DNA of 64,000 bases from the human T2T-CHM13v2.0 reference genome, Homo sapiens. The notes beneath the pieces are model-generated. The model had not been told where the DNA came from. It ran no database searches and worked only from the letters and a program-made list of their open reading frames with translations. The DNA is taken from the NCBI GenBank assembly GCA_009914755.4, contig CP086569.2:11808001-11872000 (forward strand), written 5' to 3'. The position numbers and the translations under genes are program-made. Below are positions 1 to 22,433 of the stretch, piece after piece (position 1 is the first letter of the stretch; each line of letters begins with the position of its first letter).

Positions 1-2395
1 GTATGGAATGGACTGCCATAGAACGGACTGCAGTGTAATGGATTGAATTCTAATTCATTCAAATGGAATGGAATTGAATGGAATGGAATCCAATGGAATG
101 GATAGGATTGTACTGGAATGGAATAGCATGGAATGCAACGGAGTGGAATGGAGTTGAATGAAGTGGAATGGAATCGATTGGAATGGAATCAAATGGAATG
201 GACGGGAATGGAATGGACTGGAAGAGAACAGACTCGAATTTAATAGATTGCAATGTAATTGATTCAAAGGGAATGGAATCGAATGGAATGTAATAAAATT
301 GAAGGGATTTGAGTTCAATGCAATGGAATAGAATGGAATGCAAAGGAAAGGAAAGGTACGGAGTGAAATCGAGTGTAATGGAATCGAATGGAATGAAATG
401 GAATGGAATGGACTCAAAAGAAATGGACGAGGGACAAAACGGAATCGAACTGATTGGAATCGAACGGAACGGAATGGAATGGAATGGTCTCCATTGGATC
501 GGAGTAGAACGGACTGGAATGGAATGGAATGAAATGGAATGGAAAGGAATAGAATGGAATGGAATGGAATGGAATGGAATGGAAGGTAATGGAAAGATAT
601 CGAACGGATTGGAAAGGAATGGAATGGACCCTAATGGAATGGAATGGAATTCAACAGAAACGAATGGAATGGACTGGAGTGAAATGGAGTCGAATGTAAT
701 TGACTGGAGTGGAATGGACTCGAAAGGAATGGACTCGAATAGAATGGACTGGAATGGATTGTACTCAAATGGAGTGGAAAGGAATAAAATGGATTGCACC
801 AGATTGGAATGGAACAGAATGTAATGGAATGGAATGGAATGCAATGGAATGGCTCCAATGGAATGGAGTCGAATGCAATGGAACAGAAAGGAAAGGAATT
901 GAATGGAATTGAAAGTAATAGAACAAAATGGAGTGCAAAGGAAAGATATTGAATGGAATGAATCGAAAAGAAATCGAATGGAATGGACAAGAATGGAATG
1001 GAATAGAATGGAATAGACTGGCGTGCAATGAAAACGAATGGAACGGAAACGAATGGAATGCAATGGAAAGGAATGGAGTAGAATAAATACTATGGAATGG
1101 AATGGAGGCGAAAGGAAAAGAATGGATTGGAATGTCACCGAATGGAAAGATATGGAATGGAAAGGAATGGATACGAATGGAATGGAATAGAAAGGAACGG
1201 AAAGGTAAAGAATGGAATGGAATCGGATAGAATGGAATGCAATGTAATGGAGTCGAATGGAAAATAATCGTGTAGAATGATATCGAATGGAATGGAATGG
1301 AATGGAATGGACTCGAATGGAATGTACTCAAATGGATTAGAATAGAATGGAATGGAACTAAACGTAATGAACTCGAATGGAATGGACACAAATAGAATGG
1401 AAGAGAAGGGAATGGTATTGAATGGAATTTATTCGAAAAGAGTGGAATTCAATGGAATGCAGCAGTGTGGCATGGAATCAAATGGAATGGAATCGAATGG
1501 AATGGACCCGAGTGGAATGGACTCACATAGAACAGCCTCGAATGTAATGGATGACAATGTATTAGATTCGAAAGGACTGAAATCGAATGGAATGTAATCA
1601 AGTAGAACGGAATTGAATGCATGGAATGGCATAGAAAGTAACGCAATGGAATGGAATAGACTGGAATGGAATGGAATCGGATGGAATGTAATGAAATGTA
1701 ATGGAAGGAATGCCATGGAATGGAATGGAATGGAAGGCAATGGGACGGTGTATAATGGAGTGCAATGGATTTCAGTGGAATGTAGTCAAAAGGAAAGAAA
1801 TAGAATGGAATTCAATATAATGGAATGGCATCCAATGGCAAGGAATGGAGCGGACTCCAATGGAAACGACATGAAAGGAATATAATAAAATGGAATGGCA
1901 TTGAACGAAATGGAATGCAATGGAGTTAAAAGGTAAAATATCGAATGGAAAAGAATTGAATGGACTCGAAAGGAATATAATGGAATGGAATGGACTCGAA
2001 TGGAATGTACTAGAGTTGAATGGAATCGAATGGAATGGAAAACAATGGAAAGGAAAGGAAGGGAATTGAAAGGAAAGGAATAGAATGGAATGGAATCGGA
2101 TGGAACGGAATTGAATGGAATGGAAACTAAAGGAATAGAATAGAAAGGAATCGCATTGAATGGAATGGAATAGAATGGAATCAGATGGAACAGAAAGGAA
2201 TGGAATAGAATCGAATGGAATGGCATCGAATGGATGGAATGGAATGTAATGGAATGGAATAGAAAGGAATGGAATGGACTCGAATGGAATGTACTCAAAT
2301 GGAATAGAATAGAATGGAATGGAAGTAAATATAATGGACTCGAATGGAATGCATTGGAATAAATTGGAATTGAGTGTATTGGATTCGAATGGAAA

Positions 2396-2442
2396 GGAAT
2401 GGAATGGAATGGAATGGAATGGAATGGAATGGAATGGAATGG
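2396..2442. repeat. Example of a pure (GGAAT)n core tract (9 perfect pentamers) inside the HOR. Tracts like this are the substrates for slippage and unequal exchange.
   Basis: ggaatggaatggaatggaatggaatggaatggaatggaatggaat with no substitutions. Homologous tracts vary in copy number between HOR copies. Confidence 0.85.
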
Positions 2443-2498
2443 ATTCGAATGGAATGGAATCGAATGGAATGGAACGAATTGGAATGTAATTGAATGGA

Positions 2499-2545
2499 GT
2501 CAAAAACAGTAGAAAGAAATAAAGTTTCATCGAAAGATATCGAAT
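2499..2545. other. Conserved non-pentameric island (gtcaaaaacagtagaaagaaataaagtttcatcgaaagatatcg), present once per HOR.
   Basis: The same string recurs at about 8108, 13725, 19322, 24931, 30528 and 31188 (duplicated copy), and at 36768, 42318, 47918, 53458 and 58978, with 1-3 substitutions. Confidence 0.8.
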
Positions 2546-3100
2546 GGAATTGAATGGAATGTACGCGAATGGAATGGACTGGAATGCAATGGAGTGACAT
2601 GTAACGGAATCGAAAGGAATGGAATCCAATGAAATGGAATTGAATGGAATAGAAATGAATAGAATGGAATGGAGATTAACGGAAAGATATTAAAATAATG
2701 GAATGGAATTGAGTGGACACGAATGGAATGGACTGGAATGGAAAGGACTCAAATGAAAACGAGCGCAATAGAATGGACTCGAATGGAATGGATTGGAGTG
2801 GAATGGTCTCGAATGGATTGGAAAGGAATGGAATGGAAAGGAATAGAATGGAATGTAATCAAATGGAACGAAATGGAATGGAATGGATTCGACTGGAGCA
2901 GAATTGAATGGAGTGGATTTGAATGGAATGGAATGCAATCGAATGGAATGGACACGAATCGAATAGAATGAAATGTAATGGCATAGAATGGAATGGAATG
3001 GAATGGAATGGAATGGAATGGAACGGAATTGAATGTCATGGAATGGAATGGCATGGCATGGAATGGAATGGAATGGAATGGAATGAAATGGATTGGAATG

Positions 3101-3175
3101 GGATGGGCCCAAAAGTAATAGACTCAAATAAAAGGGACTCAAAGAGAATGAAGTGGAAAGAAACGGTCTCGAATG
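3101..3175. other. Conserved diverged island containing the GGGCCC (ApaI) site. It occurs once per HOR and is a useful physical landmark.
   Basis: ggatgggcccaaaagtaatagactcaaataaaagggactcaaagagaatgaagtggaaagaaacggtctcgaatg. GGGCCC was seen once per HOR copy, for example at 3105, about 8715, about 14325 and about 31797. Confidence 0.75.
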
Positions 3176-4280
3176 TAATTTATTCGAATAGAATGATATT
3201 GAATGGAATGCAATAGTATGGAATGGTATCGAATAGAATGGAATAGAATGGAATGGAATGGAACGGAATGGAGTGCAATTGAACGGACTCAAATGAAATA
3301 AATTGCAATATAATTGATTCAAATGGAATGGAATCGAATAGAATGTAAACAAATGGAATGGAAGGCAATGCAATGGAAAGGAATCGAATGAAATGGAATA
3401 AATGGAATGGAATGGAATGGAAAGGACGCGAATATATTGGACTGTTAAGGAAAGGTGTCAAATCGAATTTATTCCAATAGAATGGAATCGAATGGAATGC
3501 AATACTATTGAATCGAATCGAATGGAATGGAATTGAATGGAATGGACAGGAATGGAATGAACTGGAAGTGAATGGACAGGAACGTAATATATTGCAATGT
3601 AATTTATTCAAATGGAATGGAATGCAATCGAATGGAATGGACTCGATTGGAATGGACTGGAGTGGAATGGATTCAAATGGAATGGCAAGGAATGGAATGG
3701 AATGGAATGGAAAGCAAAGGAATCTACTGGAATAGAATCGAACGGAACAGAAAGGAATGGAATGGAATGGAGTGGAATGGACTCGAATGGAATGTATTCG
3801 AATGTAATGGACCTAAAAAGGAATGGAATCCAATGGAATGGAATTGAATGGAATCAAAAGGAATAGAAAGGCATCGAGTGTAATTGAATGATATCGAAAG
3901 GAAGGGAATGGAATGAACTCGAATGGAATGCACTGGAATGGAATGGACTCGATCAGAACGGACTGGAGAGGAATGTACACAAATGGAATGGAAACGAATG
4001 GAATGGAATGAAATGGAATGGAATGAAATGGAATTGAAAGGAAGGGAATCAAATGGAATGGAATGGAATGGATTGGAATAGAATGGATTCAAATAAAATA
4101 GAATCGATGGGAATGGTATTGAATGAAAGGGACTTGAATGGAATGGAAAGCAATGGAAGATATTGGAATCGAATGGCATCGAATGAAATGGAATGGAACG
4201 GAATGGAACGGAACCGAATGGAATGGAATGGACTCAAATGTAATGGACACCAATGGAATCGACTGAAATATAATAGTGTC

Positions 4281-4310
4281 GAAAGGAATGGCCTCGAGCG
4301 GAATTTATTT
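4281..4310. other. Conserved island with GGCC plus the CTCGAG (XhoI) site and the haplotype-diagnostic CpG variant cgagCGg versus cgagTGg.
   Basis: Copies 1-7 read aatggcctcgagcggaatttatttg. Copies 8-11 read aatggcctcgagtggaatttatttg, for example at 44091-44110. Confidence 0.75.
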
Positions 4311-5607
4311 GAATAGAATGGAATCAAATGGAATACAATACCATTGAATGGAATCGAATGGAATGGAATCGAATGGAATGGAATCAAATGGAATGGAACG
4401 GAATTCAATATAATGGAGTAGAATGGAATGCATTGGAAAGGAGCAGAGTGGAATCAAGTGGAATGGAATCGAGTGGAATGGAATCGAGTGGAATGGAATC
4501 AATGGGAACAAAATCGAATTGAATGGACTTGAATGGAATTGACTCGAAAGGAATTGACTCGAAAGGAATGGACTGGAACAAAAAGGAATCAAATGGACAG
4601 GAATGGGATGGAATGGACACGAATGGAATGGAGTCAAATGCAAACGCATCGAATGGAATGGATTGAAATGGAATGCAATGGAATGGAACAGAAAGGAAGA
4701 GAATGGAATTGAGAGTAATGGAAAGATATCGATTGGAATGAAATGGAATGGAAAGGAATTGAATGGAAAGGAATGGAGTGGAAAGAAATGGATTGGAATG
4801 GAATGGTCTCCAATGGAATGGACTGGAGTGGAATGGAATCGAATGGAATGAAAAGAATGGAACGGAATGGAACGGAAAGGAATAGAATGTTATGGAATCC
4901 GATTGGACAGAATGGAATGGAATGGACTTTCATGAAATGGAGTCGAATAGAGTGTCATCAAAAGGAATGGAATGGAATGGAGTGGACTCAAAAGGAATGG
5001 ACTCGAAAGGAATGGAGTCGAACCAAATTGAATCAAATGGATTGGAGTCGAACAGAATGGAATGGAATGAAATGTACTCGACTGGAGTAGAGAGGAATGT
5101 AAAGGAATAGAATGGAATGTAATCAAATGGATTGCAAGTGAATGGAATCAAAAATAATAGAAAGGAATGGAGTGTAAAGGGATGATATTGAATATAATGG
5201 AATGGAATGGAATTTAATGGAATGGAGACGAAGGAATGGACAGGAATGTAATGGACTCCAATGGAATGGAATGGATCAAAATGGATTTGAACAGATTGGA
5301 ATCGAACGGAATGGAATGCAACGGCATGGAATGGACTCGAATGGAGAAGAGACAAATGGAATGGAAACGAATTCAATGGAATTGAAAAGAATAGGATGGA
5401 ATGGCGTGTAATGGTAAGATACTAAATGGAATGGAATTGAATGGAATGGAATGGACCCAAATGTAATGCACTCGAAAGGAATATACTCAAATAGAATGGA
5501 ATCGAAAGGAAAGGTCTCAAATGGAATTTATTCAATACAATGGAATCGAATGGAATGCAATAGAATGGAATGGAATCGAATGTAATGGAATCAAATAGAA
5601 TGGACCA

Positions 5608-8600
5608 GTATGGAATGGACTGCCATAGAACGGACTGCAGTGTAATGGATTGAATTCTAATTCATTCAAATGGAATGGAATTGAATGGAATGGAATCCAA
5701 TGGAATGGATAGGATTGTACTGGAATGGAATAGCATGGAATGCAACGGAGTGGAATGGAGTTGAATGAAGTGGAATGGAATCGATTGGAATGGAATCAAA
5801 TGGAATGGACGGGAATGGAATGGACTGGAAGAGAACAGACTCGAATTTAATGGATTGCAATGTAATTGATTCAAAGGGAATGGAATCGAATGGAATGTAA
5901 TAAAATTGAAGGGATTTGAGTTCAATGCAATGGAATAGAATGGAATGCAAAGGAAAGGAAAGGTACGGAGTGAAATCGAGTGTAATGGAATCGAATGGAA
6001 TGAAATGGAATGGAATGGACTCAAAAGAAATGGACGAGGGACAAAACGGAATCGAACTGATTGGAATCGAACGGAACGGAATGGAATGGAATGGTCTCCA
6101 TTGGATCGGAGTAGAACGGACTGGAATGGAATGGAATGAAATGGAATGGAAAGGAATAGAATGGAATGGAATGGAATGGAATGGAATGGAAGGTAATGGA
6201 AAGATATCGAACGGATTGGAAAGGAATGGAATGGACCCTAATGGAATGGAATGGAATTCAACAGAAACGAATGGAATGGACTGGAGTGAAATGGAGTCGA
6301 ATGTAATTGACTGGAGTGGAATGGACTCGAAAGGAATGGACTCGAATAGAATGGACTGGAATGGATTGTACTCAAATGGAGTGGAAAGGAATAAAATGGA
6401 TTGCACCAGATTGGAATGGAACAGAATGTAATGGAATGGAATGGAATGCAATGGAATGGCTCCAATGGAATGGAGTCGAATGCAATGGAACAGAAAGGAA
6501 AGGAATTGAATGGAATTGAAAGTAATAGAACAAAATGGAGTGCAAAGGAAAGATATTGAATGGAATGAATCGAAAAGAAATCGAATGGAATGGACAAGAA
6601 TGGAATGGAATAGAATGGAATAGACTGGCGTGCAATGAAAACGAATGGAATGGAAACGAATTTAATGCAATGGAAAGGAATGGAGTAGAATAAATACTAT
6701 GGAATGGAATGGAGGCGAAAGGAAAAGAATGGATTGGAATGTCACCGAATGGAAAGATATGGAATGGAAAGGAATGGATACGAATGGAATGGAATAGAAA
6801 GGAACGGAAAGGTAAAGAATGGAATGGAATCGGATAGAATGGAATGCAATGTAATGGAGTCGAATGGAAAATAATCGTGTAGAATGATATCGAATGGAAT
6901 GGAATGGAATGGAATGGACTCGAATGGAATGTACTCAAATGGATTAGAATAGAATGGAATGGAACTAAACGTAATGAACTCGAATGGAATGGACACAAAT
7001 AGAATGGAAGAGAAAGGAATGGTATTGAATGGAATTTATTCGAATAGAGTGGAATTCAATGGAATGCAACAGTGTGGCATGGAATCAAATGGAATGGAAT
7101 CGAATGGAATGGACCCGAGTGGAATGGACTCACATAGAACAGCCTCGAATGTAATGGATGACAATGTATTAGATTCGAAAGGACTGAAATCGAATGGAAT
7201 GTAATCAAGTAGAACGGAATTGAATGCATGGAATGGCATAGAAAGTAACGCAATGGAATGGAATAGACTGGAATGGAATGGAATCGGATGGAATGTAATG
7301 AAATGTAATGGAAGGAATGCCATGGAATGGAATGGAATGGAATGCAATGGGACGGTGTATAATGGAGTGCAATGGATTTCAGTGGAATGTAGTCAAAAGG
7401 AAAGAAAGAGAATGGAATTCAATATAATGGAATGGCATCCAATGGCAAGGAATGGAGCGGACTCCAATGGAAACGACATGAAAGGAATATAATAAAATGG
7501 AATGGCATTGAACGAAATGGAATGTAATGGAGTTAAAAGGTAAAATATCGAATGGAAAAGAATTGAATGGACTCGAAAGGAATATAATGGAATGGAATGG
7601 ACTCGAATGGAATGTACTAGAGTTGAATGGAATCGAATGGAATGGAAAACAATGGAAAGGAAAGGAAGGGAATTGAAAGGAAAGGAATAGAATGGAATGG
7701 AATCGGATGGAACGGAATTGAATGGAATGGAAACTAAAGGAATAGAATAGAAAGGAATCGCATTGAATGGAATGGAATAGAATGGAATCAGATGGAACAG
7801 AAAGGAATGGAATAGAATCGAATGGAATGGCATCGAATGGATGGAATGAAATGTAATGGAATGGAATAGAAAGGAATGGAATGGACTCGAATGGAATGTC
7901 CTCAAATGGAATAGAATAGAATGGAATGGAAGTAAATATAATGGACTCGAATGGAATGCATTGGAATAAATTGGAATTGAGTGTATTGGATTCGAATGGA
8001 AAGGAATGGAATGGAATGGAATGGAATGGAATGGAATGGAATGGAATGGAATGGATTCGAATGGAATGGAATCGAATGGAATGGAACGAATTGGAATGTA
8101 ATTGAATGGAGTCAAAAACAGTAGAAAGAAATAAAGTTTCATCGAAAGATATCGAATGGAATTGAATGGAATGTACGCGAATGGAATGGACTGTAATGGA
8201 ATGGAGTGACATGTAACGGAATCGAAAGGAATGGAATCCAATGAAATGGAATTGAATGGAATAGAAATGAATAGAATGGAATGGAGATTAACGGAAAGAT
8301 ATTAAAATAATGGAATGGAATTGAGTGGACACGAATGGAATGGACTGGAATGGAAAGGACTCAAATGAAAACGAGCGCATTAGAATGGACTCGAATGGAA
8401 TGGATTGGAGTGGAATGGTCTCGAATGGATTGGAAAGGAATGGAATGGAAAGGAATAGAATGGAATGTAATCAAATGGAACGAAATGGAATGGAATGGAT
8501 TCGACTGGAGCAGAATTGAATGGAGTGGATTTGAATGGAATGGAATGCAATCGAATGGAATGGACACGAATCGAATAGAATGAAATGAAATGGCATAGAA

Positions 8601-11224
8601 TGGAATGGAATGGAATGGAATGGAATGGAATGGAATGGAACGGAATTGAATGTCATGGAATGGAATGGCATGGCATGGAATGGAATGGAATGGAATGGAA
8701 TGAAATGGATTGGAATGGGATGGGCCCAAAAGTAATAGACTCAAATAAAAGGGACTCAAAGAGAATGAAGTGGAAAGAAACGGTCTCGAATGTAATTTAT
8801 TCGAATAGAATGATATTGAATGGAATGCAATAGTATGGAATGGTATCGAATAGAATGGAATAGAATGGAATGGAATGGAACGGAATGGAGTGCAATTGAA
8901 CGGACTCAAATGCAATAAATTGCAATATAATTGATTCAAATGGAATGGAATCGAATAGAATGTAAACAAATGGAATGGAAGGCAATGCAATGGAAAGGAA
9001 TCGAATGAAATGGAATAAATGGAATGGAATGGAATGGAAAGGACGCGAATATATTGGACTGTTAAGGAAAGGTGTCAAATCGAATTTATTCCAATAGAAT
9101 GGAATCGAATGGAATGCAATACTATTGAATCGAATCGAATGGAATGGAATTGAATGGAATGGACAGGAATGGAATGAACTGGAAGTGAATGGACAGGAAC
9201 GTAATATATTGCAATGTAATTTATTCAAATGGAATGGAATGCAATCGAATGGAATGGACTCGATTGGAATGGACTGGAGTGGAATGGATTCAAATGGAAT
9301 GGCAAGGAATGGAATGGAATGGAATGGAAAGCAAAGGAATCTACTGGAATAGAATCGAACGGAACAGAAAGGAATGGAATGGAATGGAGTGGAATGGACT
9401 CGAATGGAATGTATTCGAATGTAATGGACCTAAAAAGGAATGGAATCCAATGGAATGGAATTGAATGGAATCAAAAGGAATAGAAAGGCATCGAGTGTAA
9501 TTGAATGATATCGAAAGGAAGGGAATGGAATGAACTCGAATGGAATGCACTGGAATGGAATGGACTCGATCAGAACGGACTGGAGAGGAATGTACACAAA
9601 TGGAATGGAAACGAATGGAATGGAATGAAATGGAATGGAATGAAATGGAATTGAAAGGAAGGGAATCAAATGGAATGGAATGGAATGGATTGGAATAGAA
9701 TGGATTCAAATAAAATAGAATCGATGGGAATGGTATTGAATGAAAGGGACTTGAATGGAATGGAAAGCAATGGAAGATATTGGAATCGAATGGCATCGAA
9801 TGAAATGGAATGGAACGGAATGGAACGGAACCGAATGGAATGGAATGGACTCAAATGTAATGGACACCAATGGAATCGACTGAAATATAATAGTGTCGAA
9901 AGGAATGGCCTCGAGCGGAATTTATTTGAATAGAATGGAATCAAATGGAATACAATACCATTGAATGGAATCGAATGGAATGGAATCGAATGGAATGGAA
10001 TCAAATGGAATGGAACGGAATTCAATATAATGGAGTAGAATGGAATGCATTGGAAAGGAGCAGAGTGGAATCAAGTGGAATGGAATCGAGTGGAATGGAA
10101 TCGAGTGGAATGGAATCAATGGGAACAAAATCGAATTGAATGGACTTGAATGGAATTGACTCGAAAGGAATTGACTCGAAAGAAATGGACTGGAACAAAA
10201 AGGAATCAAATGGACAGGAATGGGATGGAATGGACACGAATGGAATGGAGTCAAATGCAAACGCATCGAATGGAATGGATTGAAATGGAATGCAATGGAA
10301 TGGAACAGAAAGGAAGAGAATGGAATTGAGAGTAATGGAAAGATATCGATTGGAATGAAATGGAATGGAAATGAATTGAATGGAAAGGAATGGAGTGGAA
10401 AGAAATGGATTGGAATGGAATGGTCTCCAATGGAATGGACTGGAGTGGAATGGAATCGAATGGAATGAAAAGAATGGAACGGAATGGAATGGAAAGGAAT
10501 AGAATGTTATGGAATCCGATTGGACAGAATGGAATGGAATGGAGTTTCATGAAATGGAGTCGAATAGAGTGTCATCAAAAGGAATGGAATGGAATGGAGT
10601 GGACTCAAAAGGAATGGACTCGAAAGGAATGGAGTCCAACCAAATTGAATCAAATGGATTGGAGTCGAACAGAATGGAATGGAATGAAATGTACTCGACT
10701 GGAGTAGAGAGGAATGTAAAGGAATAGAATGGAATGTAATCAAATGGATTGCAAGTGAATGGAATCAAAAATAATAGAAAGGAATGGAGTGTAAAGGGAT
10801 GATATTGAATATAATGGAATGGAATGGAATTTAATGGAATGGAGACGAAGGAATGGACAGGAATGTAATGGACTCCAATGGAATGGAATGGATCAAAATG
10901 GATTTGAACAGATTGGAATCGAACGGAATGGAATGCAACGGCATGGAATGGACTCGAATGGAGAAGAGACAAATGGAATGGAAACGAATTCAATGGAATT
11001 GAAAAGAATAGGATGGAATGGCGTGTAATGGTAAGATACTAAATGGAATGGAATTGAATGGAATGGAATGGACCCAAATGTAATGCACTCGAAAGGAATA
11101 TACTCAAATAGAACGGAATCGAAAGGAAAGGTCTCAAATGGAATTTATTCAATACAATGGAATCGAATGGAATGCAACAGAATGGAATGGAATCGAATGT
11201 AATGGAATCAAATAGAATGGACCA
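5608..11224. repeat. HOR copy 2, 5617 bp, variant B.
   Basis: The anchor recurs at 5608 and 11225. B-type markers are the 261-aa ORF at 5666..6451, MHSIPFHS at 7036..7347, QKERKRMEF at 7220..7492 and NENERIR at 8325..8519. Confidence 0.85.
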
Positions 11225-14200
11225 GTATGGAATGGACTGCCATAGAACGGACTGCAGTGTAATGGATTGAATTCTAATTCATTCAAATGGAATGGAATTG
11301 AATGGAATGGAATCCAATGGAATGGATAGGATTGTACTGGAATGGAATAGCATGGAATGCAACGGAGTGGAATGGAGTTGAATGAAGTGGAATGGAATCG
11401 ATTGGAATGGAATCAAATGGAATGGACGGGAATGGAATGGACTGGAAGAGAACAGACTCGAATTTAATAGATTGCAATGTAATTGATTCAAAGGGAATGG
11501 AATCGAATGGAATGTAATAAAATTGAAGGGATTTGAGTTCAATGCAATGGAATAGAATGGAATGCAAAGGAAAGGAAAGGTACGGAGTGAAATCGAGTGT
11601 AATGGAATCGAATGGAATGAAATGGAATGGAATGGACTCAAAAGAAATGGACGAGGGACAAAACGGAATCGAACTGATTGGAATCGAACGGAACGGAATG
11701 GAATGGAATGGTCTCCATTGGATCGGAGTAGAACGGACTGGAATGGAATGGAATGAAATGGAATGGAAAGGAATAGAATGGAATGGAATGGAATGGAATG
11801 GAATGGAAGGTAATGGAAAGATATCGAACGGATTGGAAAGGAATGGAATGGACCCTAATGGAATGGAATGGAATTCAACAGAAACGAATGGAATGGACTG
11901 GAGTGAAATGGAGTCGAATGTAATTGACTGGAGTGGAATGGACTCGAAAGGAATGGACTCGAATAGAATGGACTGGAATGGATTGTACTCAAATGGAGTG
12001 GAAAGGAATAAAATGGATTGCACCAGATTGGAATGGAACAGAATGTAATGGAATGGAATGGAATGCAATGGAATGGCTCCAATGGAATGGAGTCGAATGC
12101 AATGGAACAGAAAGGAAAGGAATTGAATGGAATTGAAAGTAATAGAACAAAATGGAGTGCAAAGGAAAGATATTGAATGGAATGAATCGAAAAGAAATCG
12201 AATGGAATGGACAAGAATGGAATGGAATAGAATGGAATAGACTGGCGTGCAATGAAAACGAATGGAACGGAAACGAATGGAATGCAATGGAAAGGAATGG
12301 AGTAGAATAAATACTATGGAATGGAATGGAGGCGAAAGGAAAAGAATGGATTGGAATGTCACCGAATGGAAAGATATGGAATGGAAAGGAATGGATACGA
12401 ATGGAATGGAATAGAAAGGAACGGAAAGGTAAAGAATGGAATGGAATCGGATAGAATGGAATGCAATGTAATGGAGTCGAATGGAAAATAATCGTGTAGA
12501 ATGATATCGAATGGAATGGAATGGAATGGAATGGACTCGAATGGAATGTACTCAAATGGATTAGAATAGAATGGAATGGAACTAAACGTAATGAACTCGA
12601 ATGGAATGGACACAAATAGAATGGAAGAGAAGGGAATGGTATTGAATGGAATTTATTCGAAAAGAGTGGAATTCAATGGAATGCAGCAGTGTGGCATGGA
12701 ATCAAATGGAATGGAATCGAATGGAATGGACCCGAGTGGAATGGACTCACATAGAACAGCCTCGAATGTAATGGATGACAATGTATTAGATTCGAAAGGA
12801 CTGAAATCGAATGGAATGTAATCAAGTAGAACGGAATTGAATGCATGGAATGGCATAGAAAGTAACGCAATGGAATGGAATAGACTGGAATGGAATGGAA
12901 TCGGATGGAATGTAATGAAATGTAATGGAAGGAATGCCATGGAATGGAATGGAATGGAAGGCAATGGGACGGTGTATAATGGAGTGCAATGGATTTCAGT
13001 GGAATGTAGTCAAAAGGAAAGAAATAGAATGGAATTCAATATAATGGAATGGCATCCAATGGCAAGGAATGGAGCGGACTCCAATGGAAACGACATGAAA
13101 GGAATATAATAAAATGGAATGGCATTGAACGAAATGGAATGCAATGGAGTTAAAAGGTAAAATATCGAATGGAAAAGAATTGAATGGACTCGAAAGGAAT
13201 ATAATGGAATGGAATGGACTCGAATGGAATGTACTAGAGTTGAATGGAATCGAATGGAATGGAAAACAATGGAAAGGAAAGGAAGGGAATTGAAAGGAAA
13301 GGAATAGAATGGAATGGAATCGGATGGAACGGAATTGAATGGAATGGAAACTAAAGGAATAGAATAGAAAGGAATCGCATTGAATGGAATGGAATAGAAT
13401 GGAATCAGATGGAACAGAAAGGAATGGAATAGAATCGAATGGAATGGCATCGAATGGATGGAATGGAATGTAATGGAATGGAATAGAAAGGAATGGAATG
13501 GACTCGAATGGAATGTACTCAAATGGAATAGAATAGAATGGAATGGAAGTAAATATAATGGACTCGAATGGAATGCATTGGAATAAATTGGAATTGAGTG
13601 TATTGGATTCGAATGGAAAGGAATGGAATGGAATGGAATGGAATGGAATGGAATGGAATGGATTCGAATGGAATGGAATCGAATGGAATGGAACGAATTG
13701 GAATGTAATTGAATGGAGTCAAAAACAGTAGAAAGAAATAAAGTTTCATCGAAAGATATCGAATGGAATTGAATGGAATGTACGCGAATGGAATGGACTG
13801 GAATGCAATGGAGTGACATGTAACGGAATCGAAAGGAATGGAATCCAATGAAATGGAATTGAATGGAATAGAAATGAATAGAATGGAATGGAGATTAACG
13901 GAAAGATATTAAAATAATGGAATGGAATTGAGTGGACACGAATGGAATGGACTGGAATGGAAAGGACTCAAATGAAAACGAGCGCAATAGAATGGACTCG
14001 AATGGAATGGATTGGAGTGGAATGGTCTCGAATGGATTGGAAAGGAATGGAATGGAAAGGAATAGAATGGAATGTAATCAAATGGAACGAAATGGAATGG
14101 AATGGATTCGACTGGAGCAGAATTGAATGGAGTGGATTTGAATGGAATGGAATGCAATCGAATGGAATGGACACGAATCGAATAGAATGAAATGTAATGG

Positions 14201-16826
14201 CATAGAATGGAATGGAATGGAATGGAATGGAATGGAATGGAACGGAATTGAATGTCATGGAATGGAATGGCATGGCATGGAATGGAATGGAATGGAATGG
14301 AATGAAATGGATTGGAATGGGATGGGCCCAAAAGTAATAGACTCAAATAAAAGGGACTCAAAGAGAATGAAGTGGAAAGAAACGGTCTCGAATGTAATTT
14401 ATTCGAATAGAATGATATTGAATGGAATGCAATAGTATGGAATGGTATCGAATAGAATGGAATAGAATGGAATGGAATGGAACGGAATGGAGTGCAATTG
14501 AACGGACTCAAATGAAATAAATTGCAATATAATTGATTCAAATGGAATGGAATCGAATAGAATGTAAACAAATGGAATGGAAGGCAATGCAATGGAAAGG
14601 AATCGAATGAAATGGAATAAATGGAATGGAATGGAATGGAAAGGACGCGAATATATTGGACTGTTAAGGAAAGGTGTCAAATCGAATTTATTCCAATAGA
14701 ATGGAATCGAATGGAATGCAATACTATTGAATCGAATCGAATGGAATGGAATTGAATGGAATGGACAGGAATGGAATGAACTGGAAGTGAATGGACAGGA
14801 ACGTAATATATTGCAATGTAATTTATTCAAATGGAATGGAATGCAATCGAATGGAATGGACTCGATTGGAATGGACTGGAGTGGAATGGATTCAAATGGA
14901 ATGGCAAGGAATGGAATGGAATGGAATGGAAAGCAAAGGAATCTACTGGAATAGAATCGAACGGAACAGAAAGGAATGGAATGGAATGGAGTGGAATGGA
15001 CTCGAATGGAATGTATTCGAATGTAATGGACCTAAAAAGGAATGGAATCCAATGGAATGGAATTGAATGGAATCAAAAGGAATAGAAAGGCATCGAGTGT
15101 AATTGAATGATATCGAAAGGAAGGGAATGGAATGAACTCGAATGGAATGCACTGGAATGGAATGGACTCGATCAGAACGGACTGGAGAGGAATGTACACA
15201 AATGGAATGGAAACGAATGGAATGGAATGAAATGGAATGGAATGAAATGGAATTGAAAGGAACGGAATCAAATGGAATGGAATGGAATGGATTGGAATAG
15301 AATGGATTCAAATAAAATAGAATCGATGGGAATGGTATTGAATGAAAGGGACTTGAATGGAATGGAAAGCAATGGAAGATATTGGAATCGAATGGCATCG
15401 AATGAAATGGAATGGAACGGAATGGAACGGAACCGAATGGAATGGAATGGACTCAAATGTAATGGACACCAATGGAATCGACTGAAATATAATAGTGTCG
15501 AAAGGAATGGCCTCGAGCGGAATTTATTTGAATAGAATGGAATCAAATGGAATACAATACCATTGAATGGAATCGAATGGAATGGAATCGAATGGAATGG
15601 AATCAAATGGAATGGAACGGAATTCAATATAATGGAGTAGAATGGAATGCATTGGAAAGGAGCAGAGTGGAATCAAGTGGAATGGAATCGAGTGGAATGG
15701 AATCGAGTGGAATGGAATCAATGGGAACAAAATCGAATTGAATGGACTTGAATGGAATTGACTCGAAAGGAATTGACTCGAAAGAAATGGACTGGAACAA
15801 AAAGGAATCAAATGGACAGGAATGGGATGGAATGGACACGAATGGAATGGAGTCAAATGCAAACGCATCGAATGGAATGGATTGAAATGGAATGCAATGG
15901 AATGGAACAGAAAGGAAGAGAATGGAATTGAGAGTAATGGAAAGATATCGATTGGAATGAAATGGAATGGAAATGAATTGAATGGAAAGGAATGGAGTGG
16001 AAAGAAATGGATTGGAATGGAATGGTCTCCAATGGAATGGACTGGAGTGGAATGGAATCGAATGGAATGAAAAGAATGGAACGGAATGGAATGGAAAGGA
16101 ATAGAATGTTATGGAATCCGATTGGACAGAATGGAATGGAATGGAGTTTCATGAAATGGAGTCGAATAGAGTGTCATCAAAAGGAATGGAATGGAATGGA
16201 GTGGACTCAAAAGGAATGGACTCGAAAGGAATGGAGTCCAACCAAATTGAATCAAATGGATTGGAGTCGAACAGAATGGAATGGAATGAAATGTACTCGA
16301 CTGGAGTAGAGAGGAATGTAAAGGAATAGAATGGAATGTAATCAAATGGATTGCAAGTGAATGGAATCAAAAATAATAGAAAGGAATGGAGTGTAAAGGG
16401 ATGATATTGAATATAATGGAATGGAATGGAATTTAATGGAATGGAGACGAAGGAATGGACAGGAATGTAATGGACTCCAATGGAATGGAATGGATCAAAA
16501 TGGATTTGAACAGATTGGAATCGAACGGAATGGAATGCAACGGCATGGAATGGACTCGAATGGAGAAGAGACAAATGGAATGGAAACGAATTCAATGGAA
16601 TTGAAAAGAATAGGATGGAATGGCGTGTAATGGTAAGATACTAAATGGAATGGAATTGAATGGAATGGAATGGACCCAAATGTAATGCACTCGAAAGGAA
16701 TATACTCAAATAGAATGGAATCGAAAGGAAAGGTCTCAAATGGAATTTATTCAATACAATGGAATCGAATGGAATGCAATAGAATGGAATGGAATCGAAT
16801 GTAATGGAATCAAATAGAATGGACCA
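11225..16826. repeat. HOR copy 3, 5602 bp, variant A, near-identical to copy 1.
   Basis: The ORF-track proteins at 11283..12362 (359 aa), 12653..12964 (MPSIPFHS) and 12837..13109 (QKERNRMEF) are identical to those of copy 1. Copy 3 lies 11224 bp from copy 1. Confidence 0.85.
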
Positions 16827-19800
16827 GTATGGAATGGACTGCCATAGAACGGACTGCAGTGTAATGGATTGAATTCTAATTCATTCAAATGGAATGGAAT
16901 TGAATGGAATGGAATCCAATGGAATGGATAGGATTGTACTGGAATGGAATAGCATGGAATGCAACGGAGTGGAATGGAGTTGAATGAAGTGGAATGGAAT
17001 CGATTGGAATGGAATCAAATGGAATGGACGGGAATGGAATGGACTGGAAGAGAACAGACTCGAATTTAATGGATTGCAATGTAATTGATTCAAAGGGAAT
17101 GGAATCGAATGGAATGTAATAAAATTGAAGGGATTTGAGTTCAATGCAATGGAATAGAATGGAATGCAAAGGAAAGGAAAGGTACGGAGTGAAATCGAGT
17201 GTAATGGAATCGAATGGAATGAAATGGAATGGAATGGACTCAAAAGAAATGGACGAGGGACAAAACGGAATCGAACTGATTGGAATCGAACGGAACGGAA
17301 TGGAATGGAATGGTCTCCATTGGATCGGAGTAGAACGGACTGGAATGGAATGGAATGAAATGGAATGGAAAGGAATAGAATGGAATGGAATGGAATGGAA
17401 TGGAATGGAAGGTAATGGAAAGATATCGAACGGATTGGAAAGGAATGGAATGGACCCTAATGGAATGGAATGGAATTCAACAGAAACGAATGGAATGGAC
17501 TGGAGTGAAATGGAGTCGAATGTAATTGACTGGAGTGGAATGGACTCGAAAGGAATGGACTCGAATAGAATGGACTGGAATGGATTGTACTCAAATGGAG
17601 TGGAAAGGAATAAAATGGATTGCACCAGATTGGAATGGAACAGAATGTAATGGAATGGAATGGAATGCAATGGAATGGCTCCAATGGAATGGAGTCGAAT
17701 GCAATGGAACAGAAAGGAAAGGAATTGAATGGAATTGAAAGTAATAGAACAAAATGGAGTGCAAAGGAAAGATATTGAATGGAATGAATCGAAAAGAAAT
17801 CGAATGGAATGGACAAGAATGGAATGGAATAGAATGGAATAGACTGGCGTGCAATGAAAACGAATGGAATGGAAACGAATTTAATGCAATGGAAAGGAAT
17901 GGAGTAGAATAAATACTATGGAATGGAATGGAGGCGAAAGGAAAAGAATGGATTGGAATGTCACCGAATGGAAAGATATGGAATGGAAAGGAATGGATAC
18001 GAATGGAATGGAATAGAAAGGAACGGAAAGGTAAAGAATGGAATGGAATCGGATAGAATGGAATGCAATGTAATGGAGTCGAATGGAAAATAATCGTGTA
18101 GAATGATATCGAATGGAATGGAATGGAATGGAATGGACTCGAATGGAATGTACTCAAATGGATTAGAATAGAATGGAATGGAACTAAACGTAATGAACTC
18201 GAATGGAATGGACACAAATAGAATGGAAGAGAAAGGAATGGTATTGAATGGAATTTATTCGAATAGAGTGGAATTCAATGGAATGCAACAGTGTGGCATG
18301 GAATCAAATGGAATGGAATCGAATGGAATGGACCCGAGTGGAATGGACTCACATAGAACAGCCTCGAATGTAATGGATGACAATGTATTAGATTCGAAAG
18401 GACTGAAATCGAATGGAATGTAATCAAGTAGAACGGAATTGAATGCATGGAATGGCATAGAAAGTAACGCAATGGAATGGAATAGACTGGAATGGAATGG
18501 AATCGGATGGAATGTAATGAAATGTAATGGAAGGAATGCCATGGAATGGAATGGAATGGAATGCAATGGGACGGTGTATAATGGAGTGCAATGGATTTCA
18601 GTGGAATGTAGTCAAAAGGAAAGAAAGAGAATGGAATTCAATATAATGGAATGGCATCCAATGGCAAGGAATGGAGCGGACTCCAATGGAAACGACATGA
18701 AAGGAATATAATAAAATGGAATGGCATTGAACGAAATGGAATGTAATGGAGTTAAAAGGTAAAATATCGAATGGAAAAGAATTGAATGGACTCGAAAGGA
18801 ATATAATGGAATGGAATGGACTCGAATGGAATGTACTAGAGTTGAATGGAATCGAATGGAATGGAAAACAATGGAAAGGAAAGGAAGGGAATTGAAAGGA
18901 AAGGAATAGAATGGAATGGAATCGGATGGAACGGAATTGAATGGAATGGAAACTAAAGGAATAGAATAGAAAGGAATCGCATTGAATGGAATGGAATAGA
19001 ATGGAATCAGATGGAACAGAAAGGAATGGAATAGAATCGAATGGAATGGCATCGAATGGATGGAATGAAATGTAATGGAATGGAATAGAAAGGAATGGAA
19101 TGGACTCGAATGGAATGTACTCAAATGGAATAGAATAGAATGGAATGGAAGTAAATATAATGGACTCGAATAGAATGCATTGGAATAAATTGGAATTGAG
19201 TGTATTGGATTCGAATGGAAAGGAATGGAATGGAATGGAATGGAATGGAATGGAATGGAATGGATTCGAATGGAATGGAATCGAATGGAATGGAACGAAT
19301 TGGAATGTAATTGAATGGAGTCAAAAACAGTAGAAAGAAATAAAGTTTCATCGAAAGATATCGAATGGAATTGAATGGAATGTACGCGAATGGAATGGAC
19401 TGTAATGGAATGGAGTGACATGTAACGGAATCGAAAGGAATGGAATCCAATGAAATGGAATTGAATGGAATAGAAATGAATAGAATGGAATGGAGATTAA
19501 CGGAAAGATATTAAAATAATGGAATGGAATTGAGTGGACACGAATGGAATGGACTGGAATGGAAAGGACTCAAATGAAAACGAGCGCATTAGAATGGACT
19601 CGAATGGAATGGATTGGAGTGGAATGGTCTCGAATGGATTGGAAAGGAATGGAATGGAAAGGAATAGAATGGAATGTAATCAAATGGAACGAAATGGAAT
19701 GGAATGGATTCGACTGGAGCAGAATTGAATGGAGTGGATTTGAATGGAATGGAATGCAATCGAATGGAATGGACACGAATCGAATAGAATGAAATGAAAT

Positions 19801-22433
19801 GGCATAGAATGGAATGGAATGGAATGGAATGGAATGGAATGGAATGGAACGGAATTGAATGTCATGGAATGGAATGGCATGGCATGGAATGGAATGGAAT
19901 GGAATGGAATGAAATGGATTGGAATGGGATGGGCCCAAAAGTAATAGACTCAAATAAAAGGGACTCAAAGAGAATGAAGTGGAAAGAAACGGTCTCGAAT
20001 GTAATTTATTCGAATAGAATGATATTGAATGGAATGCAATAGTATGGAATGGTATCGAATAGAATGGAATAGAATGGAATGGAATGGAACGGAATGGAGT
20101 GCAATTGAACGGACTCAAATGCAATAAATTGCAATATAATTGATTCAAATGGAATGGAATCGAATAGAATGTAAACAAATGGAATGGAAGGCAATGCAAT
20201 GGAAAGGAATCGAATGAAATGGAATAAATGGAATGGAATGGAATGGAAAGGACGCGAATATATTGGACTGTTAAGGAAAGGTGTCAAATCGAATTTATTC
20301 CAATAGAATGGAATCGAATGGAATGCAATACTATTGAATCGAATCGAATGGAATGGAATTGAATGGAATGGACAGGAATGGAATGAACTGGAAGTGAATG
20401 GACAGGAACGTAATATATTGCAATGTAATTTATTCAAATGGAATGGAATGCAATCGAATGGAATGGACTCGATTGGAATGGACTGGAGTGGAATGGATTC
20501 AAATGGAATGGCAAGGAATGGAATGGAATGGAATGGAAAGCAAAGGAATCTACTGGAATAGAATCGAACGGAACAGAAAGGAATGGAATGGAATGGAGTG
20601 GAATGGACTCGAATGGAATGTATTCGAATGTAATGGACCTAAAAAGGAATGGAATCCAATGGAATGGAATTGAATGGAATCAAAAGGAATAGAAAGGCAT
20701 CGAGTGTAATTGAATGATATCGAAAGGAAGGGAATGGAATGAACTCGAATGGAATGCACTGGAATGGAATGGACTCGATCAGAACGGACTGGAGAGGAAT
20801 GTACACAAATGGAATGGAAACGAATGGAATGGAATGAAATGGAATGGAATGAAATGGAATTGAAAGGAAGGGAATCAAATGGAATGGAATGGAATGGATT
20901 GGAATAGAATGGATTCAAATAAAATAGAATCGATGGGAATGGTATTGAATGAAAGGGACTTGAATGGAATGGAAAGCAATGGAAGATATTGGAATCGAAT
21001 GGCATCGAATGAAATGGAATGGAACGGAATGGAACGGAACCGAATGGAATGGAATGGACTCAAATGTAATGGACACCAATGGAATCGACTGAAATATAAT
21101 AGTGTCGAAAGGAATGGCCTCGAGCGGAATTTATTTGAATAGAATGGAATCAAATGGAATACAATACCATTGAATGGAATCGAATGGAATGGAATCGAAT
21201 GGAATGGAATCAAATGGAATGGAACGGAATTCAATATAATGGAGTAGAATGGAATGCATTGGAAAGGAGCAGAGTGGAATCAAGTGGAATGGAATCGAGT
21301 GGAATGGAATCGAGTGGAATGGAATCAATGGGAACAAAATCGAATTGAATGGACTTGAATGGAATTGACTCGAAAGGAATTGACTCGAAAGGAATGGACT
21401 GGAACAAAAAGGAATCAAATGGACAGGAATGGGATGGAATGGACACGAATGGAATGGAGTCAAATGCAAACGCATCGAATGGAATGGATTGAAATGGAAT
21501 GCAATGGAATGGAACAGAAAGGAAGAGAATGGAATTGAGAGTAATGGAAAGATATCGATTGGAATGAAATGGAATGGAAATGCATTGAATGGAAAGGAAT
21601 GGAGTGGAAAGAAATGGATTGGAATGGAATGGTCTCCAATGGAATGGACTGGAGTGGAATGGAATCGAATGGAATGAAAAGAATGGAACGGAATGGAACG
21701 GAAAGGAATAGAATGTTATGGAATCCGATTGGACAGAATGGAATGGAATGGACTTTCATGAAATGGAGTCGAATAGAGTGTCATCAAAAGGAATGGAATG
21801 GAATGGAGTGGACTCAAAAGGAATGGACTCGAAAGGAATGGAGTCCAACCAAATTGAATCAAATGGATTGGAGTCGAACAGAATGGAATGGAATGAAATG
21901 TACTCGACTGGAGTAGAGAGGAATGTAAAGGAATAGAATGGAATGTAATCAAATGGATTGCAAGTGAATGGAATCAAAAATAATAGAAAGGAATGGAGTG
22001 TAAAGGGATGATATTGAATATAATGGAATGGAATGGAATTTAATGGAATGGAGACGAAGGAATGGACAGGAATGTAATGGACTCCAATGGAATGGAATGG
22101 ATCAAAATGGATTTGAACAGATTGGAATCGAACGGAATGGAATGCAACGGCATGGAATGGACTCGAATGGAGAAGAGACAAATGGAATGGAAACGAATTC
22201 AATGGAATTGAAAAGAATAGGATGGAATGGCGTGTAATGGTAAGATACTAAATGGAATGGAATTGAATGGAATGGAATGGACCCAAATGTAATGCACTCG
22301 AAAGGAATATACTCAAATAGAACGGAATCGAAAGGAAAGGTCTCAAATGGAATTTATTCAATACAATGGAATCGAATGGAATGCAATAGAATGGAATGGA
22401 ATCGAATGTAATGGAATCAAATAGAATGGACCA
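16827..22433. repeat. HOR copy 4, 5607 bp, variant B, near-identical to copy 2.
   Basis: The proteins at 16885..17670 (261 aa), 18255..18566 (MHSIPFHS) and 18439..18711 (QKERKRMEF) are identical to those of copy 2. Copy 4 lies 11219 bp from copy 2. Confidence 0.85.

What the first reader, a model, noticed from the sequence alone, without database searches (positions are those of the whole stretch)
1..22433. Second-order periodicity in domain 1: an A-B HOR dimer (about 11.2 kb) duplicated as A-B-A-B
Copies 1 and 3 share a complete marker set: the 359-aa ORF, MPSIPFHS, QKERNRMEF and NENERNR. Copies 2 and 4 share the alternative set: the 261-aa ORF, MHSIPFHS, QKERKRMEF and NENERIR. Spacing between like copies is 11224 and 11219 bp. 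This implies recent amplification by unequal exchange in register with a two-HOR block, not with the single HOR.
Basis: seen in the sequence. Interest (0 to 1): 0.6.

Follow-up and report, generated by a model that had tools for sequence, protein, structure and literature searches.

The report
Local two-unit duplication in satellite III
This is an ordinary stretch of human-type (GGAAT)n satellite III DNA with a 5.6-kb repeat unit. A pair of slightly different neighbouring units was recently copied as a block, and one unit was then copied again. This kind of local expansion is already known for such arrays.

Summary
The alternation is real but incompletely described. The whole window is one (GGAAT)n satellite array with a unit of about 5.6 kb, 11.4 copies, all on one strand.

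- **Like versus unlike copies.** Copies 1/3 differ by 6 substitutions and copies 2/4 by 7. Unlike neighbours differ by 20-24. Seventeen substitutions and one indel split the copies as {1,3} versus {2,4,5}.
- **Where the domain ends.** It does not end at 22433. Copy 5 (22434-28040) is B-type and differs from copy 4 at 2 sites. Copy 6 is also B-type for about 2.3 kb. The pattern is A-B-A-B-B-B', ending near 30.3-30.4 kb, just before a 662-bp internal duplication.
- **Register.** The longest exact repeat, 5521 bp, lies in the single-unit register (lag 5607). "Not with the single HOR" is therefore wrong.
- **Non-co-segregating sites.** Three sites in the 3' kilobase group {2,3} versus {1,4,5}, so short conversion-like patches are also needed.
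- **A second case.** Copies 8-11 (39817-62042) form an independent and cleaner dimer duplication.

The most common HSat3A3-specific 24-mer occurs once in each of the 11 complete units. Contigs from metagenome assemblies, one labelled human skin, carry the same unit. Hyper-local expansion of kb-scale units in HSat3 has been published. The finding is ordinary and of low interest.

The parts
1..5607 (+). Unit C1, type A (the window begins here; the array probably continues to the left)
   Evidence: identical to C3 over unit positions 1-4043 except a 5-bp (GGAAT) length change; 24 substitutions against C2
5608..11224 (+). Unit C2, type B
   Evidence: 7 substitutions against C4, 20-24 against the A units
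11225..16826 (+). Unit C3, type A
   Evidence: 6 substitutions against C1, all at unit positions 4044-5020
16827..22433 (+). Unit C4, type B
22434..28040 (+). Unit C5, type B, omitted by the finding. It is a hybrid: C6-like at unit positions 712 and 767, C4-like from 2346 onward
   Evidence: 2 substitutions and no indel against C4; it carries the 261-aa ORF, QKERKRMEF and NENERIR
28041..30430 (+). First ~2.3-2.4 kb of unit C6, still B-type; the true end of the homogeneous domain
   Evidence: 3-4 mismatches against C5 up to about 30286, including an exact 1216-bp tract 23116-24331 = 28723-29938
30431..31750 (+). 662-bp internal tandem duplication inside C6 (30431-31092 and 31093 to about 31750). 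From here on C6 is about 1.7% from type B
   Evidence: the two copies are 99.1% and 96.9% alike in their two halves; neither is B-identical (98.2%)
17594..28721 (+). Longest exact repeat of the window, 5521 bp, in the single-unit register (17594-23114 = 23201-28721)
4044..5020 (+). Discordant 3' kilobase of the unit in C1 (equivalent to 9651-10627 in C2 and 15263-16239 in C3). It holds all C1/C3 differences and the three sites that group C2 with C3
   Evidence: pattern 01100 at unit positions 4566, 4873 and 4927; four-gamete conflicts between 3296|4566 and 4927|5497
39817..62042 (+). Second, independent dimer duplication D-E-D-E (C8-C11)
   Evidence: 57 sites with pattern 0101 and no incompatible doubleton. 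The tract of near-identity at a two-unit offset is 39803-51012, about 11.2 kb, the length of one dimer
62043..64000 (+). Partial unit C12, D-like but about 1% from C8/C10 (an older layer of alternation)
   Evidence: 18-19 substitutions against C8/C10 and 34-35 against C9/C11 in 1958 bp

Best explanation
The window is a head-to-tail array of a 5.6-kb nested tandem repeat. It is built from the (GGAAT)n pentamer of human satellite III, most likely subfamily HSat3A3, which is reported as Y-specific.

Two neighbouring unit variants, A and B, differ at about 0.3-0.4% of sites. A carries 10 derived substitutions and B carries 7. They were copied together by a misalignment of two units (11.2 kb). The likely process is unequal sister-chromatid exchange or an equivalent replication-coupled template switch. 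This gave A-B-A-B.

Later, a misalignment of one unit between C4 and C6 created the hybrid B unit C5, giving A-B-A-B-B-B'. One or two short, non-reciprocal conversion-like patches then rearranged alleles in the 3' kilobase of the unit.

A separate two-unit event produced D-E-D-E at 39.8-62.0 kb. The 11.2-kb periodicity is therefore local and made of single events. It is not a property of the whole array.

Shown: the identities, the site patterns, the tract lengths and the hybrid structure of C5. Inferred: the order of events, the molecular mechanism and the chromosomal origin.
For: Satellite and unit:
- TRF consensus AATGG across 62-63973. Exact GGAAT covers 31% of bases, and the 5607-bp lag dominates exact 40-mer matches.
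- There are eleven full units. In-register identity is 98.1-99.96%, against about 70% out of register.

Two-unit event in domain 1:
- 17 substitutions and one 5-bp indel show the A-B-A-B-B split.
- At an offset of two units, exact tracts cover 1-2438, 2401-4043, 5021-7899 and 8013-10182.
- Mismatches at a two-unit offset number 0-5 per kb over 1-11 kb, against up to 9 per kb at a one-unit offset.

Polarity: using C6-C12 and nine external contigs as outgroups, both A and B carry derived alleles.

One-unit event: a 5521-bp exact repeat at lag 5607. C5 shares alleles with C6 at 712 and 767, and derived alleles with C4 at 2346 and 4757.

Domain 2: 57 sites with pattern 0101 and no conflicting doubletons. 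The tract of near-identity at a two-unit offset is 11.2 kb, as one event would leave.

Independence of the two events: none of the 17 A/B sites distinguishes D from E.

Family and origin:
- The most common HSat3A3-specific 24-mer in Table 1 of PMC4022460 occurs exactly once in each of the 11 complete units. None of the other 13 subfamily 24-mers matches exactly.
- Nine metagenome contigs, one labelled human skin metagenome, carry the same unit at 92-98% identity and span unit junctions.

Precedent: hyper-local expansion of nested tandem repeats in HSat3 and unequal exchange in Y heterochromatin.
Against: - The near-identity at a two-unit offset has holes in the 3' kilobase of both units. Alleles there are grouped C2=C3 and C1=C4=C5, so no single exchange explains everything. 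I tried three placements of the crossover; each leaves one or two extra patches.
- The left end of the duplicated tract is cut by the window. Whether this is one event or a longer (A-B)n run is unknown.
- Unequal crossover, long-tract conversion and replication template switching cannot be told apart from one haplotype.
- The subfamily assignment rests on a single published 24-mer. The chromosome was not tested.
- The external contigs are short-read metagenome assemblies, possibly chimeric, and none carries a full A or B haplotype.
- Assembly correctness was not tested.
Confidence: 0.75

Rival explanations
1. Assembly artefact. The A-B-A-B-B-B' copy number or order results from false expansion, collapse or mis-phasing of near-identical 5.6-kb units.
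For: The units are 99.6-99.96% identical. About 6.7 kb (17594-24331) carries only one mismatch at lag 5607, which is the kind of place where assemblers err.
Against: Most of the region has a distinguishing variant roughly every 0.3-1 kb between unlike units and 13 between like units, which accurate 15-20 kb reads can resolve. The variants form coherent haplotypes with sensible polarity against outgroups. Domain 2 shows the same kind of structure with far more differences. No reads were available, so this remains untested.
Confidence: 0.07
2. The real repeat unit of this part of the array is an old 11.2-kb dimer. The alternation is inherited array-wide structure rather than a recent local duplication.
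For: Two separate dimer patterns lie within 64 kb. C12 is D-like but 1% diverged from C8/C10, which hints at an older layer of D/E alternation. Identity across the window shows a cluster of weak peaks around lags 11209-11224.
Against: None of the A/B sites is a D/E site. A and B are both closer to D than to E. C4-C5-C6 are B-B-B', and C6 and C7 have no partner at a two-unit offset. External contigs carry the ancestral allele at nearly all A/B sites, so A and B are rare local variants. The tract in domain 2 is exactly one dimer long.
Confidence: 0.08
3. There was no change in copy number. Long-tract gene conversion between non-adjacent units (C1 to C3, C2 to C4) overwrote pre-existing units and created the alternation.
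For: Conversion-like patches clearly occur in the 3' kilobase. A pedigree study of Y heterochromatin attributes some clustered de novo variants to gene conversion.
Against: It needs two separate conversions of more than 4 kb each, in the same register, across adjacent units. Alternatively it needs one tract of more than 10 kb, which in its outcome is equivalent to a two-unit-register exchange. In domain 2 the tract equals one dimer length exactly, as a duplication predicts.
Confidence: 0.1

Closest known systems
Human satellite III, subfamily HSat3A3 (Altemose et al. 2014, PMC4022460), reported as Y-chromosome specific. The Y pericentromere holds an HSat3 array and the DYZ17 array (Hallast et al., bioRxiv 10.1101/2022.12.01.518658)
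   Same: (GGAAT)n-derived sequence. The subfamily's most common specific 24-mer occurs once per unit. There are no HSat2 k-mers and no CAACCCGA motif. The same unit is present in contigs from metagenome assemblies, one of them labelled human skin.
   Different: No contradiction was found. However, only one diagnostic 24-mer could be tested, the chromosome could not be checked, and I found no published figure for a 5.6-kb unit.
Nested tandem repeats of HSat2/3 with hyper-local expansion (Altemose et al., bioRxiv 10.1101/2021.07.12.452052, main text and Fig. S10 legend)
   Same: A kb-scale unit without discrete monomers. The array contains patches of recent expansion, and the predominant period differs between sub-regions. 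The A-B-A-B-B-B' and D-E-D-E patches are examples at the scale of 2-6 units.
   Different: The published example is an HSat3B3 array on chromosome 20, analysed in blocks of about 100 kb. Here the pattern is resolved to single variants and crossover intervals.
Unequal sister-chromatid exchange in Y heterochromatin (DYZ1/DYZ2 at Yq12; T2T-Y, bioRxiv 10.1101/2022.12.01.518724)
   Same: Iterated tandem duplications spanning several repeat units, attributed to unequal exchange. Sister-chromatid exchanges were observed directly there.
   Different: Those events reach up to 5 Mb and involve alternating blocks of two unrelated satellites. Here the events are 5.6 and 11.2 kb within one satellite.
Alpha-satellite HOR haplotypes and layered expansion
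   Same: Variant units cluster locally, and neighbouring units are more alike than distant ones (for the model; for this window).
   Different: Alpha-satellite HORs consist of discrete 171-bp monomers and are tied to kinetochore position. This unit has no monomer level above 5 bp, apart from a weak 15-bp layer.

Membership tests
Human satellite III (HSat3) | Derived from the pentamer (CATTC)n / (GGAAT)n | tested here: met
   TRF consensus AATGGAATGG over 62-63973. Exact GGAAT covers 31% of bases, and the five rotations of the pentamer are the top 5-mers.
Human satellite III (HSat3) | Distinct from HSat2 (no HSat2 subfamily k-mers) | tested here: met
   The three HSat2 subfamily 24-mers from Table 1 of PMC4022460 give 0 matches even with 2 mismatches.
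HSat3 subfamily A3 | Carries subfamily-specific 24-mers | tested here: met
   CTTTACACTCCATTCCTTTCTATT (reverse complement) occurs exactly 11 times, once per complete unit, against 0 expected. The other 10 HSat3 subfamily 24-mers have no exact match. Only this one 24-mer was available.
HSat3 subfamily A3 | Located on the human Y chromosome | not testable with these tools
   No human genome is available in the collections. Indirect support only: the same unit occurs in nine metagenome contigs, one labelled human skin metagenome.
Nested tandem repeat / higher-order array | kb-scale unit repeated head to tail, with in-register identity far above out-of-register identity | tested here: met
   11.4 units of 5496-6223 bp. 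In-register identity is 98.1-99.96%, against about 70% out of register.
Higher-order repeat in the strict sense (discrete monomers) | Unit composed of a whole number of similar monomers | tested here: not met
   Self-alignment of a unit gives only diffuse 70-71% matches at many offsets. There is no period between 15 bp and 5.6 kb.
Two-unit (11.2 kb) super-repeat | Identity at a two-unit offset exceeds identity at a one-unit offset | tested here: met
   Met over 1 to about 11.2 kb and 39.8-51.0 kb (first-copy coordinates).
Two-unit (11.2 kb) super-repeat | All variants co-segregate with unit type | tested here: not met
   Domain 1 has 17 concordant sites and 3 incompatible sites (unit positions 4566, 4873, 4927). 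Domain 2 is fully concordant (57 against 0).
Two-unit (11.2 kb) super-repeat | Alternation persists beyond two periods or across the array | tested here: not met
   C4-C5-C6 are B-B-B', and C6 and C7 are unpaired. A/B sites are not D/E sites. The region left of the window is unknown.

The most novel reading that the evidence does not exclude
Exchange in the two-unit register may be favoured in this array and may recur at one place in the unit. The crossover of the D-E duplication maps to within about 60 bp of the window-phase unit start. One placement of the A-B crossover maps to unit positions 5498-244. Both intervals contain the unit's only short opposite-strand motif, GAATTCTAATTCATTC. C12 hints at an older D/E layer. 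Together these could mark an exchange hotspot and the birth of an 11.2-kb super-unit.
Probability: 0.1. Interest if true: 0.4.

Novelty: already known. Interest (0 to 1): 0.15.

Why it matters
The region is a small, well-resolved example of how satellite arrays change. Within 30 kb there is one two-unit exchange, one one-unit exchange with an identifiable hybrid unit, and short conversion-like patches.

If the array is Y-linked, these events cannot involve a homologue. They could then be dated and counted on the Y phylogeny using published Y assemblies. That would give per-generation rates of unit gain, unit loss and conversion in HSat3.

The finding does not change what is known about satellite evolution.

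Tried and rejected
- **Exact-protein look-ups.** The 359-aa and 261-aa ORF products are not on record in public assemblies.
- **Genome scan.** A diagnostic 34-mer gave no match in bacterial and archaeal genomes.
- **Rfam.** No family matched at gathering thresholds.
- **Pfam.** The ORFs gave Pentapeptide_4 hits. Two are below the curated cut-off (34.6 and 33.3 bits against 38) and one is above it (43 bits, for the 446-aa ORF). I rejected them as an artefact: (ATTCC)3 is 15 nt, which reads as the five residues IPFHS, and neither strand's pentamer contains a stop codon in any frame. The ORFs are by-products and not genes.
- **Literature.** I found no published figure for a 5.6-kb HSat3A3 or DYZ17 unit. 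The Altemose 2022 review that holds the consensus sequences is not in the library.
- **External A and B haplotypes.** I looked for them in the metagenome contigs. Eight of nine carry ancestral alleles at every A/B site that could be scored. L007 carries only two A-derived alleles. The contigs confirm polarity and human association but not the local pattern.
- **A single-crossover history for domain 1.** I tried three placements of a two-unit exchange, making C3, C2 or C1 the hybrid unit. Each leaves one or two unexplained patches in unit positions 4044-5020, so I do not commit to one.
- **Molecular-clock ages.** Using 0.76e-9 per site per year gives roughly 0.2-0.8 Myr for A-B-A-B, under about 0.1 Myr for C4/C5 and about 1.6 Myr for D-E-D-E. 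I treat these as order-of-magnitude only. The rate in satellite DNA is unknown and conversion distorts the counts.
Full report
**What the window is**

All 64 kb are one satellite on one strand.
- GC content is 0.36-0.39 and GC skew about +0.58 throughout.
- Tandem Repeats Finder reports a single array over 62-63973 with consensus AATGG.
- Exact GGAAT covers 31% of bases.
- Exact 40-mer matches pile up at an offset of 5607 bp and its multiples.
- BLAST of the first 5607 bp against the window defines 11 complete units and one partial unit: C1 1-5607, C2 5608-11224, C3 11225-16826, C4 16827-22433, C5 22434-28040, C6 28041-34263, C7 34264-39816, C8 39817-45382, C9 45383-50961, C10 50962-56457, C11 56458-62042, C12 62043-64000.
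- In-register identity is 98.1-99.96%. Out-of-register alignments reach only about 70-71%. The unit therefore has no discrete monomers above the pentamer. Altemose et al. call this a nested tandem repeat rather than a higher-order repeat.

**Checking the observation**

The spacings of 11224 and 11219 bp are exact. The substitution counts are as follows.

| Pair | Substitutions | Indels | Identity |
|---|---|---|---|
| C1/C3 | 6 | one 5-bp | 99.89% |
| C2/C4 | 7 | one 10-bp | 99.88% |
| C1/C2 | 24 | – | 99.57% |
| C2/C3 | 20 | – | – |
| C3/C4 | 23 | – | – |

The contrast between like and unlike copies is unlikely by chance (binomial P = 7e-4 and 1e-2).

The markers are real.
- The 359-aa ORF occurs in C1 and C3, and the 261-aa ORF in C2 and C4.
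- QKERNRMEF/QKERKRMEF and NENERNR/NENERIR are placed as stated.
- MPSIPFHS/MHSIPFHS appear only if a TTG start is read as M.

The ORFs themselves mean nothing. ATTCC repeated three times reads IPFHS, and neither strand of the pentamer contains a stop codon in any frame. Long ORFs and the Pfam pentapeptide-repeat hits are by-products of this.

**What the finding missed**

1. *The pattern continues past 22433.* C5 differs from C4 by 2 substitutions and no indel, and carries the whole B marker set. C6 is B-type for its first 2.25-2.4 kb, with 3-4 mismatches against C5. A 662-bp internal tandem duplication follows (30431-31092 and 31093 to about 31750). After it, C6 is about 1.7% from B. Domain 1 is therefore A-B-A-B-B-B' and ends near 30.3-30.4 kb.
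2. *The most recent event is in the single-unit register.* The longest exact repeat in the window is 5521 bp at lag 5607 (17594-23114 = 23201-28721). It continues for a further 1216 exact bases after one mismatch. C5 shares the alleles of C6 at unit positions 712 and 767. It shares the derived alleles of C4 at 2346 and 4757. A unit with the head of the downstream neighbour and the tail of the upstream neighbour is what a one-unit unequal exchange between C4 and C6 would create.
3. *Not all variants co-segregate.* Among C1-C5 there are 29 variable substitution sites.
   - 17 split {C1,C3} from {C2,C4,C5}. Sixteen lie at unit positions 245-3296 and one at 5497. A 5-bp indel shows the same split.
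   - 3 (positions 4566, 4873, 4927) split {C2,C3} from {C1,C4,C5}.
   - 2 unite C4 and C5.
   - 7 are private to one copy.
   
   The first two patterns are incompatible by the four-gamete test. At least two recombination breakpoints are therefore required, between 3296|4566 and between 4927|5497. All six C1/C3 differences lie in positions 4044-5020.

**Polarity**

I used C6-C12 as outgroups. A is derived at 10 of the 17 sites and B at 7, and C6 shares five of the B-derived alleles.

Nine metagenome contigs carry the same unit at 92-98% identity, several of them across a unit junction. One is labelled human skin metagenome. Eight of them carry the inferred ancestral allele at every A/B site that could be scored. 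L007 has A-derived alleles at 1044 and 1736 only. A and B are therefore both local, low-copy variants of the unit.

**History of domain 1**

At an offset of two units, near-identity runs from position 1 to about 11.2 kb, roughly one dimer length.
- Exact tracts measure 2438, 1643, 2879 and 2170 bp.
- There are 0-5 mismatches per kb.

That is what one exchange between copies misaligned by two units would leave. The window cuts the left end, so a longer (A-B)n run cannot be excluded.

The tract has 'holes' in the 3' kilobase of both units, with alleles grouped C2=C3 and C1=C4=C5. I tried three placements of the crossover, making C3, C2 or C1 the hybrid unit. Each needs one or two additional short non-reciprocal patches. 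I therefore infer one two-unit event, then one one-unit event, plus one or two conversion-like patches, and I leave the details open.

**A second, cleaner case**

C8-C11 read D-E-D-E.
- 57 sites show the pattern 0101 and there are no incompatible doubletons.
- C8/C10 differ by 14 substitutions and C9/C11 by 12, against 69-71 for D versus E.
- The tract of near-identity at a two-unit offset runs 39803-51012, about 11.2 kb, the length of one dimer.
- C12 is D-like but about 1% away from C8 and C10, which suggests an older layer of alternation.
- None of the A/B sites separates D from E, and A and B are both closer to D than to E.

The two dimer patterns are therefore independent local events and not an array-wide 11.2-kb period.

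**Identity of the satellite**

- Of the 14 'most common subfamily-specific 24-mers' in Table 1 of Altemose et al. 2014 (PMC4022460), only the HSat3A3 one matches exactly. It occurs once in each of the 11 complete units.
- That paper reports HSat3A3 as Y-specific.
- Hallast et al. describe an HSat3 array of 372-488 kb and a DYZ17 array of 0.86-1.74 Mb next to the Y centromere.
- I could not decide which of those two arrays this is, could not test the chromosome, and found no published unit length.

If the array is Y-linked, exchange must be between sister chromatids or within a chromatid. That step is inference.

**Comparison with what is known**

- Altemose et al. report new nested tandem repeats in HSat2/3. 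[quoted passage not shown]
- The legend of their Fig. S10 describes small regions of recent expansion and wide variation in the predominant unit length within an HSat3B3 array.
- The T2T-Y paper attributes iterated tandem duplications in Yq12 to unequal exchange and reports sister-chromatid exchanges there.
- A recent pedigree study reports gene-conversion-like clustered changes in Y heterochromatin and two de novo SNVs in DYZ17.

The present pattern is a fine-scale instance of these known processes.

**Rivals**

- *Assembly error* cannot be tested without reads. The coherent haplotypes, the sensible polarity and the more divergent parallel case in domain 2 argue against it.
- *An old array-wide dimer unit* is contradicted by the B-B-B' run, by the unpaired C6 and C7, and by the independence of the A/B and D/E sites.
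- *Conversion without a change in copy number* would need tracts of more than 4-10 kb in register.

**Verdict**

The feature is an ordinary property of HSat3 arrays and of low interest.

The one lead worth a look is that the dimer-duplication breakpoints may coincide near the unit's short opposite-strand motif. The evidence for this is weak: two events, one of them poorly bounded, with about 0.07 probability of coincidence by chance.

Noticed in passing
window 39817-64000: A second and cleaner dimer duplication, D-E-D-E (C8-C11): 57 concordant sites, none discordant, and a tract of exactly one dimer length. It is followed by a D-like unit (C12) that is about 1% diverged, which hints at an older layer of alternation.
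   Followed up: yes
window 30431-31750: A 662-bp internal tandem duplication inside unit C6, exactly where the homogeneous B-type domain ends. Neither copy is B-identical. This looks like an out-of-register exchange junction between two array domains.
   Followed up: partly
whole window: Autocorrelation at lag 15 (0.659) exceeds that at lags 5 and 10 (0.635, 0.634). Lags 30, 45 and 60 likewise exceed their neighbours. This is a weak 15-bp layer on top of the pentamer.
   Followed up: no
window 45-60 and the same place in every unit (e.g. 5652-5667, 39859-39874): The motif GAATTCTAATTCATTC (TAAATC in C7, C9, C11 and C12) reads as a ~10-nt stretch of the opposite (CATTC) strand. It is the only such spot near the unit start. 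The domain-2 crossover, and one model of the domain-1 crossover, fall within a few hundred bp of it.
   Followed up: partly
window 59-1138(-), 5666-6451(-), 39873-41213(-): Long minus-strand ORFs hit Pfam Pentapeptide_4, one of them above the curated cut-off. The cause is that (ATTCC)3 translates to IPFHS. Gene finders and domain scans can be fooled by this satellite.
   Followed up: yes
L001-L009 (metagenome contigs, e.g. L006 labelled human skin metagenome; L005 is 5628 bp, about one collapsed unit): Host satellite DNA has been assembled into public metagenome contigs. L007 carries A-derived alleles at unit positions 1044 and 1736 but ancestral alleles at the other A sites, so some 'A' variants exist elsewhere in human data.
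   Followed up: partly
window 42804 and 44472-44566 (against C10 53945-53974 and 55641): The otherwise near-identical C8 and C10 differ by a 30-bp and a 95-bp indel. Length changes larger than one pentamer have accumulated since the duplication.
   Followed up: no
window 2396-2400, 8003-8012 and the equivalent positions: A (GGAAT)n tract differs in length between near-identical units. C3, C4 and C5 have n repeats, C1 has n+1, and C2 and C6 have n+2. This is fast slippage that does not follow the A/B split.
   Followed up: no
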